From a virus: 64,000 nucleotides of DNA. The stretch is from positions 67,919 to 131,918 of IMG/VR virus record IMGVR_UViG_3300032030_000014. One strand, written 5' to 3'. Below are positions 1 to 23,403 of the stretch, in pieces; position 1 is the stretch's first letter; each line of letters begins with the position of its first letter. Under the pieces are notes generated by a model, which saw only the letters and a program-made list of their open reading frames with translations, did not search any database and had not been told where the DNA came from. A program made the position numbers and the translations under genes.

Positions 1-630
1 TATGGTAAGGGTTATACTCTTGCTATGCAGGAATATGATGAACAGTTCCGCAAGATTCTCCAAATGAATTATGGTCTTGTAATTATCTCCCATGATAAGG
101 ATAAGACTTTCAAGGATGAATCCGGTCAGGAGTATAATAAGATTGTTCCTACTCTGGACAATCGTGCCGCTCTGGTTTGCGAGCGCACCTGTGATATTAT
201 TGGATATGCTCGTGAAGTAAATACAGAGAATGGTCCTCAAACTCGCCTGTTCCTTCGTGGAACTCCTCGTTTTGAAGCTGGTTCTCGTTTCCGCTACACT
301 CCCGATTCCATTGAGTTTTCTTATGATGCTCTGGTAAATGCTATTGGCGATGCTGTTGAGAAGGAAGCCGCTCATGGAGCCAATCGTGTAACAGATCATA
401 GCCAGAGTGCAACTGTATATGCAGAAGAAACCACATATGATTTTGCGGCTATGATGGATGAGTTCCAAGCAATCGTTGGCGAACTTGTTAAGAAGCCCAA
501 TATGACAGCGAAGATTACCGCTATTGTAGACAAGCATCTCGGCAAGGGCAAGAAGGTTGCTGAATGCACCGCAGTTAATGCACCTCAACTTGATCTCATT
601 CTTTATGAACTGAGAGAATTGATTAAGTAA
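1..630 (+). CDS. AAA_24 / Sak4-like RecA-fold ATPase, C-terminal part (gene starts upstream of the window)
   Basis: ORF is open from nt 1 in the frame of the 25..630 ORF. The motif LVIISHDKDK...DESGQEY...PTLDNRAAL is typical of the phage AAA_24 (PF13479) C-terminal region. TAA stop at 628-630. Confidence 0.45.
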   Translation, partial: YGKGYTLAMQEYDEQFRKILQMNYGLVIISHDKDKTFKDESGQEYNKIVPTLDNRAALVCERTCDIIGYAREVNTENGPQTRLFLRGTPRFEAGSRFRYTPDSIEFSYDALVNAIGDAVEKEAAHGANRVTDHSQSATVYAEETTYDFAAMMDEFQAIVGELVKKPNMTAKITAIVDKHLGKGKKVAECTAVNAPQLDLILYELRELIK

Positions 631-640
631 ATATATAAAA

Positions 641-674
641 GCCTCGTAGATCCTCTGCGGGGCTTGACTTTTAT
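641..674 (+). terminator. putative rho-independent terminator after the ATPase gene
   Basis: Stem gcctcgtaga / tctgcggggc (10 bp including two G-U pairs), 3-nt loop, followed by ttgacttttat. Confidence 0.35.
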
Positions 675-692
675 ATAAAAATATGATATAAT
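664..692 (+). promoter_or_regulatory. sigma-A type promoter (TTGACT-17 nt-TATAAT) for the 726 operon
   Basis: Exact -35 at 664-669, a 17-nt spacer, TATAAT at 687-692. AGGAG ribosome-binding site at 711-717, ATG at 726. Confidence 0.5.
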
Positions 693-725
693 AAATATAT
701 AAAATGGTGAAAGGAGAATTAAAAA

Positions 726-1259
726 ATGGCACATTATGTAGTCTGCTCAATTTGTAAAGAGCGATTTGATAGAGATAAATATCCTGCTGTCCTTGTAAGT
801 TCGCGTCGATATGCACATGCGACTTGTGCCGGCACCCTTTCACAAGAAGATGAACAAAAAGAAAAAGACAGAAAAGCGTTAGAAAATTATATTATCAAAT
901 TATTTAATTTAGAGCATATGGATGGACGCATTACTTTACAAATATAGAAATATATGCAAGATCATCCTGAATATACATATTCTGGTATTAAAAGAACATT
1001 AGAATATTTTTATGAAATAAAGAAAAATTCATTGGAAAAGGCTAATGGTGGTATTGGCATTGTTCCGTGGGTTTATGAAGAAGCAAAAAGATATTTTTAT
1101 AATCAATGGTTATTAAGTCAAAAAAACGCTGAGAAAGATATTGAAATGTATATTCCAAAAGTAAGAGAAATTGTTATTCAACCACCAAAACGCCAACCAA
1201 AGAGAAGAAAAGTATTTACATTTTTAGACGAAGAGGAGGTCAAAGACTGTGGCAAATAA
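726..1259 (+). CDS. zinc-ribbon protein (CxxC...H..C), probably one 177-aa protein read through the TAG at 945-947
   Basis: ORFs 726..947 and 954..1259 share a frame and are separated only by a TAG. A strong ribosome-binding site precedes 726 but none precedes 954. If TAG were a stop these would be two small genes. Confidence 0.4.
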
Positions 1260-1299
1260 ATATGTTGATACAACAGCAATTATGTAGGTCATTGGAAAT

Positions 1300-20913: not shown

Positions 20914-21153
20914 ATGGCAAATCCTTTAATGCAATTTATGCAAATGATTAGGAGTGGCGGCAATCCTTAGACAATGGTAATGAATATGCTCCAATAGCAA
21001 GCAGGTAATAGCCCAATGGGATAGAATCTACTTAAAATGGCTCAAAATAATGATGGAAAGGGGATTGAACAAGTAGCTCGTAATTTGTGTGCACAAAGAG
21101 GCCTCGACTTCGACAAAGAATTTGCTGCTTTTAAACAGCAACTAGGATTATGA
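20914..21153 (+). CDS. hypothetical small Q/M-rich protein (~79 aa, four TAGs)
   Basis: AGAGAGG ribosome-binding site. Translation MANPLMQFMQMIRSGGNP-Q-TMVMNML-Q-QQAGNSPMG-Q-NLLKMAQNNDGKGIE-Q-VARNLCAQRGLDFDKEF... TGA stop. Confidence 0.4.
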
Positions 21154-21167
21154 AGGAGGAAAACTCA

Positions 21168-21974
21168 ATGTTTAACACAAGTGAAGGCTATAGTTTATCT
21201 GACATCGCTGCTGCTACTGGCAATCGCGGTGGGATGTTTGGCGACGGCGCCGGTTTTGGCGGATGGTGGATCATTTTACTCTTCCTGTTTGCTTTTGGCG
21301 GATGGGGTAATGGCTTCGGCGGAGGCTGGGGCAATGGTGGCGCAAATAGCGTAACCGCAGATATTGGCTACAATTTTGATATGCATGATGTATCTTCTGG
21401 TATTAGAGATCTTGCTTCTAGCACAGCAAACGGTTTTTATAATCTTAATACCGGTTTACTGAATGGCTTCTCTAGTACTTAGGCTCAAATTTGTAATACT
21501 GGCTTTGATACCATTCAGGCTATTAATGGTTAGACCGTTAGTGCACTTCAGAGTGCAAATGCACTTCAGGCTCAGTTGGCCGCACATAGTGCTGATGAAC
21601 AACTTTGTTGCTGCCAGACTCAGAATCGTATTGATTCTAACTTCGCAACCCTTAACTATAATCTTGCTACAGAAGCTTGTGCCGATCGTGCTGCAGTTAC
21701 TACTGGCGTCCGTGATATTATTGATAATCAGAACGCTAATACTCGTCAGATTCTTGACTTCTTAGTTCAGGATCGTATTACTGCTCTTACTACTGAAAAC
21801 GCAGCTCTTAAAGGCCAGATTTCTCAAAGTGAGCAGAATGCTTATCTCATTAATGCCTTACGTCCAGCTGCAGAACCCGCTTATCTTGTAGCAAATCCAT
21901 ACACCGGCACAATCGGTACCTATGGATATAATGCCCTGTATGGCGGACCAGTTTGTAACGGATATATGGGTTAA
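21168..21974 (+). CDS. Gly/Trp-rich membrane protein (~268 aa, two TAGs)
   Basis: GAAGGAGGA ribosome-binding site before the ATG at 21168; the track ORF starts at 21150 without one. ORFs 21150..21482 and 21576..21974 share a frame. Hydrophobic segment WWIILLFLFAFGGW flanked by GFGG/GNGG repeats. C-terminus NPYTGTIGTYGYNALYGGPVCNGYMG. Confidence 0.5.
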
Positions 21975-21990
21975 TTAAGGAGGTTAAGCA

Positions 21991-22416
21991 ATGATGGAAA
22001 TAACTGCTAATGCAGCTCAAATAGTAGCTGTAAATTAGGCTGTCCTTTTCACAGAAACCGCAGTTCCAGGTAACTGTTCTATGATTCACAGAGAAGGAAG
22101 CGGATTAGTTGGCTTGCGCGGACTTCCAAATGGTTAGTTTCGTGCAAGATTCCTCGTTGAATTCGGTGCAAATATCGCGGTACCTACTGATGAAACAGTA
22201 GGTCCCGTGAGTCTTGCCATCGCAATCAACGGAGAGCCTGTTGTCACTTCAAGTATGATTTCAACGCCAGCCGCAGTCGATTAGTATAATAACGTTAGTG
22301 CAAGCATTTACATTGATGTACCTATTGGATGCTGCAGTTAGGTTAGTATAGAAAATACTAGCACTATCCCTGTTAGCGTTCAGAATGCTAATTTAATTAT
22401 TGAGAGGGTGGCGTAA
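21991..22416 (+). CDS. BclA C-terminal-domain-like (C1q/TNF-like beta-sandwich) protein, ~141 aa, five TAGs
   Basis: AAGGAGG ribosome-binding site. The C-terminus ...ASIYIDVPIGCCSQVSIENTSTIPVSVQNANLIIERVA matches the characteristic ending of the Bacillus exosporium BclA C-terminal domain (...SLALGTSASIIIEKVA). No collagen-like repeats. Confidence 0.5.
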
Positions 22417-23098
22417 TGGAAGCAATTAAAACAATTAAAGAACAATTAATCGCCCAGGTTTAGGGACAAATGGGAGATTTAAAATGCGTTGATGCTAAAG
22501 AACTAGGAGAAGTTATTGATATGATAAAAGATTTAGCATAGACAGAATATTACTGTGAAATTTATAAATAGATGAAAGAAGCATCAGAAGAAAAACCAAC
22601 TGATACAAATAACTATTATTACACAGAACGCTATTTCCCAACTCCTCCTATGCCAAGCTACTATAGAGATATGGATAGACCTTTCGGAAGAATGTATTAT
22701 CCAGAAGGTGGAAACAACTCTGGTTCCTCTTCAAACTCTTCTTCTAGCGGTAATAATGGTAGCAGCGGCAACAACGGTATGTCTTATTATACTCCAATGA
22801 ATGGATATTATCAACCAAATCCTTGGGGTGGATATGAAGAAGAACCTTATTACGATAAGGATTTTATTCTTCAGCACTTGCGTGACGAGCGTGAAGGACG
22901 CAGTCCAATGAAGAGAAAAATGTATATGGAAAGTAAGAGCTCTGGATAGGATTCTAATAAATCAATGAAAGAATTAGAAAGCTATATGCAGGATTTAACT
23001 TCTGATATGATGGATTTATTAGATAAGGCTTCTCCAGAAGAAAAAGCTATAGTTTAGAAAAAAGTAAATACTTTAGCTGCGAAGATCCAAAATGTTTA
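22416..23098 (+). CDS. Tyr/Gly/Ser-rich hypothetical protein (~227 aa, about six TAGs)
   Basis: Its ATG overlaps the upstream TAA (TAATG). It is in frame with ORF 22572..22949 and extends past that TAG to a TAA at ~23096. The motif YYYTERYFPTPPMPSYYRDMDRPFGRMYYPEGG...YYTPMNGYYQPNPWGGYEEEPYYDKDF resembles spore-coat-like composition. Confidence 0.4.
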
Positions 23099-23403
23099 AT
23101 ATTAATGGAATAGATTGGGAGATACGCTTTGCGTCTCCCAATCATCCTAAATTAAAAAGACAAGATAATTCTTATGCTCTTGGATGTTGTGATAGTTCAA
23201 CTAAAACTATTTATATAAATGAAATTGTGCCGATGAATAAATTAAAAAAAGTGCTTTGTCACGAAATTACACATGCGGCAATGTTCAGTTATAGAGTTGA
23301 ACTAGACTTAATTCAAGAAGAACTCATAGCCGATCTAATTGCTACATATGGCTCTGAAATTATTGAAGTTACAAATCGTATTTTTAGCCATATAGCGAAA
23401 TAA
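23092..23403 (+). CDS. small HExxH zinc-metallopeptidase-like protein (SprT/ImmA-like), 103 aa
   Basis: LCHEITHAAMFSY carries an HExxH motif. An upstream Cys pair GCCDSS. TAA stop at 23401-23403. Confidence 0.45.
   Translation: MFNINGIDWEIRFASPNHPKLKRQDNSYALGCCDSSTKTIYINEIVPMNKLKKVLCHEITHAAMFSYRVELDLIQEELIADLIATYGSEIIEVTNRIFSHIAK

What the first reader, a model, noticed from the sequence alone, without database searches (positions are those of the whole stretch)
1..23403. Steep gradient of TAG usage: core replication genes are amber-free, middle genes carry a few, late genes carry hundreds
The polymerase (1330 codons), primase, Dda helicase and methyltransferase have zero TAG. DnaB has one, dUTPase one, RuvC two, NrdD four, RecJ nine (including a TAG-TAG doublet at 4805-4810). 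The + strand cassette at 20.5-23.4 kb and the minus-strand structural block have roughly one TAG per 25-35 codons. This fits a model in which early genes must be translatable by the unmodified host while late-gene expression depends on a phage-supplied suppressor. RecJ and NrdD would then be delayed-early or middle genes.
Basis: partly seen in the sequence, partly recalled or inferred. Interest (0 to 1): 0.7.

Follow-up and report, generated by a model that had tools for sequence, protein, structure and literature searches.

The report
TAG-as-glutamine phage with amber-poor replication genes
This is part of a large gut or rumen phage that reads the stop codon TAG as glutamine and largely keeps TAG out of its DNA-replication genes; the pattern is real, but it has already been described for other recoded phages.

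Summary
Reading TAG as sense raises long-ORF coverage from 58% to 96%. TAG positions align with glutamine in relatives.

TAG makes up 10% of Gln codons in the 22 replication-module genes (24 TAG, 1 per 261 codons). It makes up 29% in the 19.3-23.4 kb genes and 49% in the tail block (237 TAG, 1 per 55). Replication versus late: Fisher p = 3e-28.

Corrections:
- DnaB has two TAGs, one at a glutamine conserved in 36 of 39 relatives.
- About half of the contrast, on a log scale, is ordinary codon bias.
- The pattern is a gene-by-gene mosaic, not a positional gradient. RecJ and RuvC carry TAG across recoded relatives, while primase has 0-9.

No tRNA lies in the window or in the 7 kb upstream. The closest relative (polymerase 85% identical) carries two Gln-type tRNA(CUA) genes about 72 kb upstream of its polymerase.

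The early-standard, late-recoded model is already published (Yutin 2021, Borges 2021). This is a new member of a known kind. Timing remains inferred.

The parts
25..630 (+). C-terminal part of an AAA_24 ATPase (331 aa in the source contig); 0 TAG
   Evidence: Pfam PF13479; full gene seen in L002
726..1259 (+). SPbeta YorH-like protein; 1 TAG (codon 74)
   Evidence: PF26927 in the precomputed gene table; TAG count
1282..2793 (+). DnaB-type helicase; 2 TAG (codons 2 and 385). Codon 385 lies in 'SATQLN', which I read from memory as DnaB motif H3
   Evidence: PF03796/PF00772. Relatives have Gln at codon 2 in 34 of 37 and at codon 385 in 36 of 39. Sequence read
3030..4136 (+). Primase-like protein (weak Toprim match); 0 TAG here, 0-9 TAG in relatives
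4508..6286 (+). RecJ-like exonuclease (DHH + RecJ_OB); 9 TAG including the doublet at 4805-4810; TAG:CAG = 9:1
   Evidence: It is the outlier within the replication module (p = 2.7e-4). Carries 1-14 TAG in recoded relatives and 6 in phAss-1
6330..7094 (+). Phage_lysozyme2 protein with a lipoprotein-like N-terminus; 0 TAG
   Evidence: PF18013
7955..9157 (+). SF1 (Dda/RecD/PIF1-like) helicase; 0 TAG
   Evidence: PF13604, PF13538, PF05970
9157..9813 (+). N6-adenine methyltransferase-like protein (match below Pfam's cut-off); 0 TAG
9867..13859 (+). DNA polymerase III alpha (SPbeta YorL type), 1330 codons; 0 TAG with 17 CAG and 24 CAA
   Evidence: Pfam PHP, DNA_pol3_alpha, finger and HHH_6 domains. 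37-39% identical to Enterococcus and SPbeta phage polymerases. P(0 TAG) = 1e-12 at the late-gene share
13856..14281 (+). DUF3310 protein; 2 TAG
14356..16632 (+). Anaerobic ribonucleotide reductase NrdD; 4 TAG (codons 98, 115, 253, 576)
   Evidence: PF13597, E = 8e-147
16820..17314 (+). NrdG activase; its only TAG is the last codon, followed directly by TGA, so the product differs by one residue between the two codes
   Evidence: PF13353
18181..18762 (+). dUTPase; 1 TAG (codon 19)
18759..19244 (+). RuvC-like Holliday-junction resolvase; 2 TAG. This family has the highest TAG rate among replication-module genes in relatives (2.1 per 100 codons)
19247..19288 (.). Strong bidirectional terminator-like hairpin that closes the plus-strand replication array
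   Evidence: it also gave a weak hit to the terminator end of the CsrC model
19291..20312 (-). Two small proteins with hydrophobic N-termini (163 and 131 aa); 2 and 3 TAG; function unknown
   Evidence: no family match. A terminator-like hairpin lies between them at 19878-19903
20496..23403 (+). Six-gene cassette of unknown function; 18 TAG in 949 codons. Parts are shared with small Butyrivibrio and gut phages
23405..23440 (.). Bidirectional terminator-like hairpin where the cassette and the late block converge
23444..29167 (-). 1907-aa fibre-like protein, last gene of the late block; 22 TAG
   Evidence: no family match
29645..32820 (-). Two late genes of 206 aa (4 TAG) and 843 aa. The 843-aa gene is TAG-poor: 2 TAG, both within its last 85 codons
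33143..41104 (-). 2653-aa late protein; 47 TAG
   Evidence: homologous and syntenic in L222 and L223
41182..47716 (-). Late genes of 637, 373, 1025 and 110 aa; 6, 5, 20 and 3 TAG
   Evidence: same gene order in L222-L225
47730..51065 (-). 1111-aa conserved tail or baseplate-region protein; 25 TAG
   Evidence: 1300 homologues with E <= 1e-10. Relatives carry 13-27 TAG. Weak match to the structural block of phAss-1
51296..54214 (-). 903-aa late protein (19 TAG) and a 66-aa protein (0 TAG here and in four relatives)
54256..62688 (-). 2810-aa protein directly downstream of the tape-measure gene; 70 TAG
62808..64000 (-). C-terminal part of the tail tape-measure protein, which runs off the window; 14 TAG in 391 codons
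   Evidence: Homologues in L222 and L223 are 3185 and 3244 aa with PF10145 PhageMin_Tail

Best explanation
The window comes from a roughly 164-kb tailed phage. It has an SPbeta-type Pol III alpha replication module and a long tape-measure tail module, and it decodes TAG as glutamine (code 15).

Shown:
- In the tail block, TAG behaves as an ordinary synonymous Gln codon at this genome's codon-bias equilibrium. TAG:CAG is 7.2, not distinguishable from TTG:CTG at 12.
- In the replication module, TAG is selectively kept out, about 7-fold below that yardstick. The strength of this depends on the gene. It is complete in the polymerase, SF1 helicase, primase and methyltransferase. It is partial in DnaB and NrdD. 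It is absent in RecJ.

Inferred:
- A phage-encoded, Gln-type tRNA(CUA) supplies the decoding. Two such genes sit in a tRNA array on the early-gene strand of the closest relative. The equivalent place in this genome lies outside the window.
- Proteins needed before the suppressor has accumulated must be TAG-free.
- Proteins that are needed or tolerated only later can carry TAG, so their synthesis waits for the code switch. These include tail proteins, the recombination nucleases RecJ and RuvC, and homing endonucleases.
For: Recoding:
- ORF coverage is 58% under the standard code and 96% with TAG as sense.
- Gln is the best-fitting residue at 60 early TAG positions (772 observations in relatives), by 537 log-likelihood units. 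For the late-gene TAG positions the margin is 138.
- Total Gln content, counting TAG, is equal in the two modules: 3.9% versus 3.7% of codons.
- All 44 genes end in TAA or TGA.

Selective depletion:
- TAG:CAG is 0.38 against TTG:CTG 2.7 in the replication module (p = 3e-11). In the late block it is 7.2 against 12 (p = 0.33).
- GC3 does not explain the differences within the replication module (rho = 0.11).

Conservation across relatives:
- The polymerase has 0-3 TAG in 32 relatives. GyrA and GyrB homologues have 0. RecJ, where recoded, has 1-14. RuvC has 2-5. Late genes have 13-27 per roughly 1100 codons.
- Primase TAG positions differ between close relatives (0, 3, 6, 8, 9 TAG). Turnover is therefore fast, and a TAG-free polymerase needs selection to persist.

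Suppressor tRNA:
- Two tRNA(CUA) genes lie at L308:4871-4946 and 5155-5229, in the contig whose polymerase is 85% identical.
- Rfam's tRNA model scores them 38 and 57 bits.
- Their acceptor stem, G73 and weak 1-72 pair resemble the tRNA-Gln(CUG) of the same array.
- 19 of 80 related loci carry a tRNA(CUA).

Published precedent.
Against: - No tRNA of any kind lies in the window or in the 7.2 kb upstream. This held with ARAGORN and with Rfam at both gathering and E <= 1 thresholds. The rest of the source contig could not be read.
- DnaB, a core replication protein, has TAG at codon 2 and at a Gln conserved in 36 of 39 relatives. Replication is therefore not fully independent of suppression.
- Close relatives tolerate up to 9 TAG in primase and 3 in the polymerase.
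- In the closest relative the tRNA(CUA) genes lie on the early-gene strand, far upstream. They could be made early, which would shrink any standard-code-only phase.
- TAG-rich and TAG-free genes share one co-oriented array. No internal terminator was found in the scanned stretch 16000-19246.
- About half of the log contrast is general codon bias.
- There are no expression data of any kind.
Confidence: 0.6

Rival explanations
1. There is no timing. Suppression is active throughout infection but is never fully efficient, so every TAG costs some yield. Selection removes TAG from proteins where full-length yield or fidelity matters most and lets it drift elsewhere.
For: - The pattern is a gene-by-gene mosaic rather than blocks, both here and in the early arm of the closest relative. 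There, about half of the genes are TAG-free and the others carry up to 8 TAG.
- DnaB, primase and polymerase carry TAG in some lineages.
- The tRNA(CUA) genes lie on the early-gene strand in the relative.
Against: - Late proteins of 2810 and 2653 aa carry 70 and 47 TAG. Even 98% read-through per codon would leave about a quarter of full-length product (my arithmetic). Suppression must therefore be nearly complete when they are made, and the cost argument for the polymerase then becomes weak.
- TAG in late genes sits at the neutral expectation.
Confidence: 0.2
2. The pattern reflects history rather than function. The replication genes were acquired, or last exchanged, from standard-code relatives and have not yet accumulated TAG. 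The tail genes have been under code 15 for longer.
For: - The family mixes codes. L018 and L032-L034 use the standard code. L059 and L061 have TGA at Trp positions. Most others use TAG as sense.
- The modules differ in codon usage (GC3 0.25 versus 0.155).
- Several TAG-free genes in the relative strongly prefer CAG (23:4 and 19:1 over CAA).
Against: - TAG positions turn over quickly between relatives that are 79-88% identical in primase. Yet the polymerase stays at 0-3 TAG across relatives down to 51% identity, and in phAss-1 at 36%.
- RecJ, embedded among TAG-free neighbours with the same GC3 (0.25), is TAG-rich in nearly all recoded relatives.
Confidence: 0.12
3. The recoding is mainly an anti-host or anti-competitor device. 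Stop-codon read-through damages host proteins, or TAG-laden genes cannot be expressed by co-infecting elements. The early/late contrast would then be a by-product.
For: Proposed in the literature for crAss-like phages (Yutin 2021). Nothing in this window argues for it specifically.
Against: It does not predict gene-specific, conserved avoidance of TAG in the polymerase together with conserved use in RecJ and RuvC.
Confidence: 0.05
4. The in-frame TAGs are real stops, so the genes are pseudogenes, are split, or reflect assembly errors.
For: None beyond the raw presence of TAG.
Against: - Coverage rises from 58% to 96% only when TAG is read as sense.
- 284 in-frame TAGs occur with no in-frame TAA or TGA.
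- TAG positions align with Gln or TAG in relatives from independent assemblies.
- Gene order and gene lengths are conserved.
Confidence: 0.01

Closest known systems
Code-15 (TAG to Gln) recoded gut phages with standard-code early genes and recoded late genes: Ivanova 2014; Yutin 2021 (PMC7886860); Borges 2021 preprint (10.1101/2021.08.26.457843); proteomic proof in Peters 2022 (PMC9523058)
   Same: - In-frame TAG aligns with Gln.
- Structural genes are heavily recoded and the polymerase is not.
- A phage tRNA(CUA) is present in a close relative.
- Use of TAG in replication genes is variable.
- Homing endonucleases in the early region carry TAG.
- The genetic code switches between close relatives.
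   Different: - This is a different lineage: Pol III alpha of SPbeta YorL type and a tail module with a tape measure of about 3200 aa.
- The analysis adds a neutral yardstick (TTG:CTG). It shows that late genes sit at equilibrium and that only the replication genes deviate.
- No lysis cassette was identified in the window.
Phage phAss-1 and the proposed Phassvirus genus, NCBI 'Caudoviricetes code 15 clade' (Babkin 2023, PMC10607447; OQ749652)
   Same: - Code 15 and the Pol III alpha, RecJ, NrdD, NrdG, RuvC and DUF3310 gene set.
- Same order of tape measure, giant protein, 903-like and 1111-like genes.
- Polymerase with 0 TAG and RecJ with 6 TAG.
- Suppressor tRNAs in the early arm.
   Different: - Only 36% polymerase identity, and no nucleotide-level match.
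- The genome is larger (164-200 kb against 136 kb).
- In phAss-1 two suppressor tRNAs sit directly upstream of NrdD. Here that spacer (14282-14355) holds none.
Bacillus phage SPbeta and Enterococcus phage EF1/VRE9 group (standard code)
   Same: YorL-type Pol III alpha at 37-39% identity, plus YorH, YorF and YonG-like proteins.
   Different: Those phages use the standard code. No TAG read-through is annotated for them.

Membership tests
Code-15 recoded phage with partial (late-biased) recoding | In-frame TAG in conserved genes; reading TAG as sense restores full-length ORFs | tested here: met
   Coverage rises from 57.6% to 96.2%. There are 284 in-frame TAGs and no in-frame TAA or TGA in 44 genes. 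Independent gene calls on the source contig give the same full-length products.
Code-15 recoded phage with partial (late-biased) recoding | TAG corresponds to glutamine | tested here: met
   Gln is the best fit by 537 log-likelihood units in early genes and by 138 in late genes. Gln content is equalised between modules when TAG is counted as Gln. No peptide evidence is available.
Code-15 recoded phage with partial (late-biased) recoding | Phage-encoded suppressor tRNA with anticodon CUA | tested here: inconclusive
   None in the window or in the 7.2 kb upstream. Two are present in the closest relative and in 19 of 80 related loci. About 92 kb of the source contig was not readable with these tools.
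Code-15 recoded phage with partial (late-biased) recoding | TAG depleted in replication or early genes relative to structural genes | tested here: met
   TAG is 10% versus 49% of Gln codons (p = 3e-28). Depletion persists after correcting for codon bias. It is conserved for the polymerase in relatives.
Code-15 recoded phage with partial (late-biased) recoding | Host uses the standard code, and TAG read-through appears only later in infection | not testable with these tools
   The host is unknown and no expression data exist. The only hint is that one cassette is shared with a Butyrivibrio phage.
Phassvirus (proposed genus around phAss-1) | High nucleotide identity and shared synteny with phAss-1 (the three proposed species are 80-86% identical to each other) | tested here: not met
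   No megablast match. Polymerase 36%, RecJ 36% and NrdD 40% amino-acid identity. Only the tail-module order and the replication gene set are shared. This is a distant relative at most.
Crassvirales (crAss-like phages) | Family A or B DNA polymerase and the crAss signature genes; podovirus-like tail without a long tape measure (from memory of the family descriptions) | tested here: not met
   The polymerase is Pol III alpha. A tape-measure protein of about 3200 aa with PF10145 is present in syntenic relatives.

The most novel reading that the evidence does not exclude
TAG number per gene may act as a graded translational timer inside a single co-oriented gene array, not only as an on/off switch between early and late blocks. 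As the Gln-type tRNA(CUA) accumulates, proteins would appear in the order of their TAG load. TAG-free proteins come first (polymerase, SF1 helicase, gyrase). Next come DnaB, NrdD and dUTPase. Then come RecJ, RuvC and the homing endonucleases, whose nuclease activity would be harmful early. The tail proteins come last.

The conserved TAG load of RecJ and RuvC among TAG-free neighbours fits this reading. The data here cannot exclude it.
Probability: 0.2. Interest if true: 0.6.

Novelty: new member of a known kind. Interest (0 to 1): 0.3.

Why it matters
The window adds a well-resolved example of stop-codon recoding from a phage lineage that is not crAss-like. That lineage holds standard-code, TAG-to-Gln and apparently TGA-to-Trp members.

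It also gives a simple quantitative test that separates two effects. One is that TAG is tolerated, as in the late genes, which sit at codon-bias equilibrium. The other is that TAG is selected against, as in the polymerase, helicase and gyrase.

It identifies gene families (RecJ, RuvC, homing endonucleases, DnaB) whose TAG status could be used to test experimentally whether recoding times protein production.

It does not change the current picture. The early-standard, late-recoded model is already published.

For annotation, the practical point is that this contig must be translated with table 15. Otherwise more than 40% of it appears non-coding.

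Tried and rejected
- **Walking the source contig beyond the window.** Look-ups and representative searches refuse proteins that contain TAG-encoded Gln. DNA references containing TAG are rejected as stops. The phage's own tape-measure protein was not returned by the homologue search. Only 7.2 kb upstream could be added.
- **Jumping past the window end in IMG/VR.** The N-terminus of the 2810-aa protein found no relative.
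- **tRNA searches.** The window, L001-L056, L058-L065, L189-L195 and L222-L231 were all negative. Relaxed ARAGORN settings with introns gave only noise. Rfam at E <= 1 found nothing tRNA-like in the window.
- **Collection-wide scan for the anticodon stem-loop CTGACTCTAAATCAG.** Most hits were unrelated phages, and none came from the closest relative's contig.
- **Function of the cassette and late proteins.** PHROGs, Pfam, NCBIfam and PDB sequence searches gave nothing usable. The 'tail module' label therefore rests on synteny with relatives whose tape measure matches PF10145.
- **GenBank phages.** There is no close relative. The best polymerase identity is 39%.
- **crAss-like identity.** I expected this from the giant ORFs and rejected it on the polymerase type and the tape measure.
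- **GC3 as the cause of differences within the replication module.** Rejected (rho = 0.11).
- **Translation-related genes upstream in relatives** (release factor, aminoacyl-tRNA synthetase). None were found among the ten TAG-free genes tested.

Full report
**What the window is.** The exact polymerase protein is found on one public contig: ENA ERZ27257205, k141_4886592, 163,725 bp. From the locus offsets I place the window at about 60,847-124,846 of that record, reversed. That leaves 38.9 kb upstream of the window start and 60.8 kb beyond its end.

The plus strand from 1 to 19.2 kb is a replication and nucleotide-metabolism array. It holds AAA_24, a YorH-like gene, DnaB, a primase-like gene, RecJ, a Phage_lysozyme2 protein, an SF1 helicase, a methyltransferase-like gene, Pol III alpha, DUF3310, NrdD, NrdG, dUTPase and RuvC. 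The polymerase is of the SPbeta YorL type. It is 37-39% identical to Enterococcus and SPbeta phage polymerases, and no nucleotide-level relative exists in GenBank phages.

From 23.4 kb to the window end the minus strand carries very large genes. Four relatives have the same gene order. There it starts with a tape-measure protein of 3185-3244 aa that matches PF10145, so this is the tail module. The last 1.2 kb of the window is the C-terminus of that tape measure. Apart from this synteny the late proteins match no annotated family.

**Is TAG really a sense codon, and for which amino acid?** ORFs of 100 aa or more cover 57.6% of the window under the standard code. They cover 96.2% if TAG is sense and 61% if TGA is sense. 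The 44 genes contain 284 in-frame TAGs, no in-frame TAA or TGA, and all end in TAA or TGA.

I aligned the window proteins to the DNA of about 70 related loci. I then compared the residues opposite the window's TAG codons with the substitution profile of each of the 20 amino acids in the same alignments.
- In early genes, Gln fits best by 537 log-likelihood units over 772 observations (266 Gln, 108 Glu, 89 Lys).
- In late genes, relatives have TAG 83 times, Gln 69 and Glu 42, and the margin is 138.
- Counting TAG as Gln makes Gln content equal in the two modules: 3.9% and 3.7% of codons.

**The counts.** They are also right for dUTPase (1), RuvC (2), NrdD (4) and RecJ (9, with the doublet at 4805-4810).

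DnaB has two TAGs if it starts at ATG 1282. Codon 2 is Gln in 34 of 37 relatives. Codon 385 is Gln in 36 of 39 relatives. It lies in 'SATQLN', which I recognise from memory as helicase motif H3. The only TAG of NrdG is its last codon and is followed directly by TGA.

By class:

| Class | Genes | Codons | TAG | Density | TAG share of Gln codons |
|---|---|---|---|---|---|
| Replication module | 22 | 6,274 | 24 | 1 per 261 | 10% |
| Genes at 19.3-23.4 kb | 8 | 1,243 | 23 | 1 per 54 | 29% |
| Late block | 14 | 13,103 | 237 | 1 per 55 | 49% |

Replication versus late gives Fisher p = 3e-28.

**What the contrast consists of.** The two modules differ in codon usage generally. GC3 is 0.25 in the replication module and 0.155 in the late block.

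Because CAG and TAG differ by a first-position C/T change, the synonymous Leu pair CTG/TTG is a natural yardstick.
- In the late block, TAG:CAG is 7.2 and TTG:CTG is 12 (p = 0.33). TAG there is used about as often as a free synonymous codon would be.
- In the replication module, TAG:CAG is 0.38 and TTG:CTG is 2.7 (p = 3e-11). That is roughly a 7-fold specific depletion.

The raw 19-fold difference in TAG:CAG therefore splits into about 4.4-fold general bias and about 4.3-fold TAG-specific avoidance (my arithmetic).

Within the replication module the distribution is heterogeneous (p = 2.5e-4). RecJ is the outlier at 9 TAG to 1 CAG, although its GC3 equals that of the polymerase. Within the late block, the 843-aa gene at 30289-32820 is TAG-poor (2 of 17 Gln codons).

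**Relatives.** IMG/VR holds a family of contigs of 100-200 kb with polymerases 51-85% identical to this one. Most are TAG-recoded. L018 and L032-L034 look standard. L059 and L061 have TGA at Trp positions.

| Gene | TAG count in relatives |
|---|---|
| Polymerase | 0-3 |
| DnaB | 0-6 |
| SF1 helicase | 0-3 |
| GyrA and GyrB homologues | 0 |
| Primase | 0-9, at positions that differ between close relatives |
| RecJ (recoded relatives) | 1-14 |
| NrdD | 0-9 |
| RuvC (recoded relatives) | 2-5 |

The distant relative phAss-1 (OQ749652; polymerase 36% identical) shows the same picture, with 0 TAG in the polymerase and 6 in RecJ.

The late genes of four relatives carry 13-27 TAG per roughly 1100 codons.

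In 49.5 kb of the closest relative's early arm, about half of the genes are TAG-free and the others carry up to 8 TAG. Three AP2/HNH-like endonuclease genes there carry 5-8 TAG. The two GIY-YIG genes upstream of this window carry 3 and 2.

The pattern is therefore a conserved gene-by-gene mosaic, not a gradient along the DNA.

**The suppressor tRNA.** ARAGORN and Rfam find no tRNA in the window or in the 7.2 kb upstream. None lies in relatives' loci equivalent to about -37 kb through +24 kb, apart from one distant relative (L057). None lies in four late-module loci either.

Walking further upstream in the closest relative (IMGVR_UViG_3300032007_000018, 200,444 bp) reached a tRNA array on the early-gene strand.
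- It holds two tRNA(CUA) genes at L308:4871-4946 and 5155-5229. Rfam's tRNA model confirms them at 38 and 57 bits.
- They lie about 72 kb upstream of the polymerase if the contig is circular.
- Their acceptor stem (ACCGGTG...), G73 and weak 1-72 pair resemble the tRNA-Gln(CUG) of the same array.
- Of 80 related loci around a neighbouring gene, 54 carry tRNAs and 19 carry a tRNA(CUA).

By position, the equivalent site in this phage is outside the window. I could not read it.

**Transcription units.** Strong terminator-like hairpins lie at 19247-19288, 19878-19903, 23405-23440, 29205-29240 and 29345-29372. There were 26 such sites in the scanned region against 8.7 expected from shuffles. In the scanned stretch 16000-19246 there is no comparably strong hairpin before RuvC; positions 1-15999 were not scanned. 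Whether RecJ is transcribed separately from the polymerase is therefore untested.

**Interpretation.** The recoding itself and the selective avoidance of TAG in the polymerase, helicase and gyrase are shown. That the avoidance exists because these proteins must be made before the suppressor is available is the published model. It remains an inference here.

Points that weaken a strict version:
- DnaB depends on TAG being read as Gln.
- Relatives carry TAG-rich primases.
- The suppressor genes sit on the early-gene strand in the relative.

The giant late proteins, with up to 70 TAG, require near-complete read-through when they are made. This argues against the rival in which suppression is always on but leaky. 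The rapid turnover of TAG positions argues against the history-only rival, in which TAG-free genes reflect recent gene transfer.

I put 0.6 on the temporal-gating explanation, 0.2 on always-on but costly suppression, and about 0.12 on history alone.

**Comparison with what is known, and novelty.** This is code-15 recoding with late-biased use of TAG, as described by Ivanova 2014, Yutin 2021 and Borges 2021, and proven at the peptide level for crAss-like phages by Peters 2022. The lineage is different. It is related distantly to phAss-1 and the NCBI 'Caudoviricetes code 15 clade' (Babkin 2023), and more distantly to SPbeta-like phages. Hence the verdict: a new member of a known kind.

What this analysis adds:
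- a neutral yardstick for TAG use;
- the conserved TAG status of RecJ and RuvC;
- the TAG-encoded conserved Gln of DnaB;
- the location and type of the suppressor tRNAs in the closest relative.

Noticed in passing
L057:3522-3618; phAss-1 OQ749652 62445-62532; L306:6630-6723; further copies in L138, L077, L089, L107, L126, L129, L178: A class of 88-97-nt tRNA(CUA) genes has a long variable arm. In all 10 distinct sequences, the variable-arm region I read by eye as a hairpin loop contains YUGA (CUCUGAA, CUUUGAA, CCUGAA, UUGA, CUGA). That is a Gln anticodon (CUG or UUG) in an anticodon-loop-like context. It could be a mimic that keeps glutamine identity after the real anticodon became CUA. No phage-recoding paper in the searched library mentions a variable arm.
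   Followed up: partly
L059 and L061 (IMG/VR relatives found through the ligase): These relatives have TGA at positions where the window has Trp (SF1 helicase, primase). The family therefore seems to contain TGA-to-Trp members alongside TAG-to-Gln and standard-code (L018, L032-L034) members.
   Followed up: partly
Relatives: L195:1434-3866, L308:10001-11104, L306 to L311: The early arm of relatives encodes an 810-aa protein with major-vault-protein shoulder and repeat domains. It also encodes a split DUF2828/TROVE-like (Ro60-like) protein directly downstream of the tRNA array, and an SPFH/flotillin protein. All are TAG-free and strongly prefer CAG. The TROVE-like assignment is from sequence motifs I recognised, not from a family search.
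   Followed up: partly
window 6330-7094 (+): A Phage_lysozyme2 protein with a lipoprotein-like signal (MRKKISILVIICVLMMAFIGC) sits inside the replication array and has no TAG. That is unlike the lysis genes reported as preferentially recoded in other phages.
   Followed up: no
L002:2685-3467 and 5021-5680 (4.5 and 2.2 kb upstream of the window); L195:728-1447, 3889-4620, 8253-9158: GIY-YIG and AP2/HNH-like homing endonuclease genes carry 2-8 TAG each among TAG-free neighbours. This matches the recoded intron endonuclease noted by Borges et al..
   Followed up: partly
window 30289-32820 (-): An 843-aa gene inside the late block has only 2 TAG among 17 Gln codons, both within its last 85 codons. 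It is the one late gene that could be made almost full-length under the standard code.
   Followed up: no
window 17309-17314: NrdG ends ...GGA TAG TGA. This tandem TAG-TGA gives products that differ by only one residue between the two codes. The 131-aa gene at 19917-20312 has a TAG two codons before its TAA.
   Followed up: partly
window 20496-23403 (+): Parts of this six-gene cassette (the 268-aa glycine-rich membrane protein and the 140-aa protein, PHROGs 16490 and 20016) recur in roughly 40-kb phages. These include Butyrivibrio virus Ceridwen, where the cassette lies downstream of the endolysin region. This hints at a Lachnospiraceae or rumen host.
   Followed up: partly
L026, L027, L031 (polymerase relatives): The polymerase match spans about 5 kb instead of 4 kb and crosses TAA codons near residues 460-491. 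This suggests an intron, intein or other insertion in the polymerase gene of these relatives.
   Followed up: no
window 1282-1302: DnaB begins ATG TAG GTC ATT GGA AAT GTG. A GTG seven codons in, preceded by GGAAA, could serve as an alternative start that skips the first TAG.
   Followed up: no
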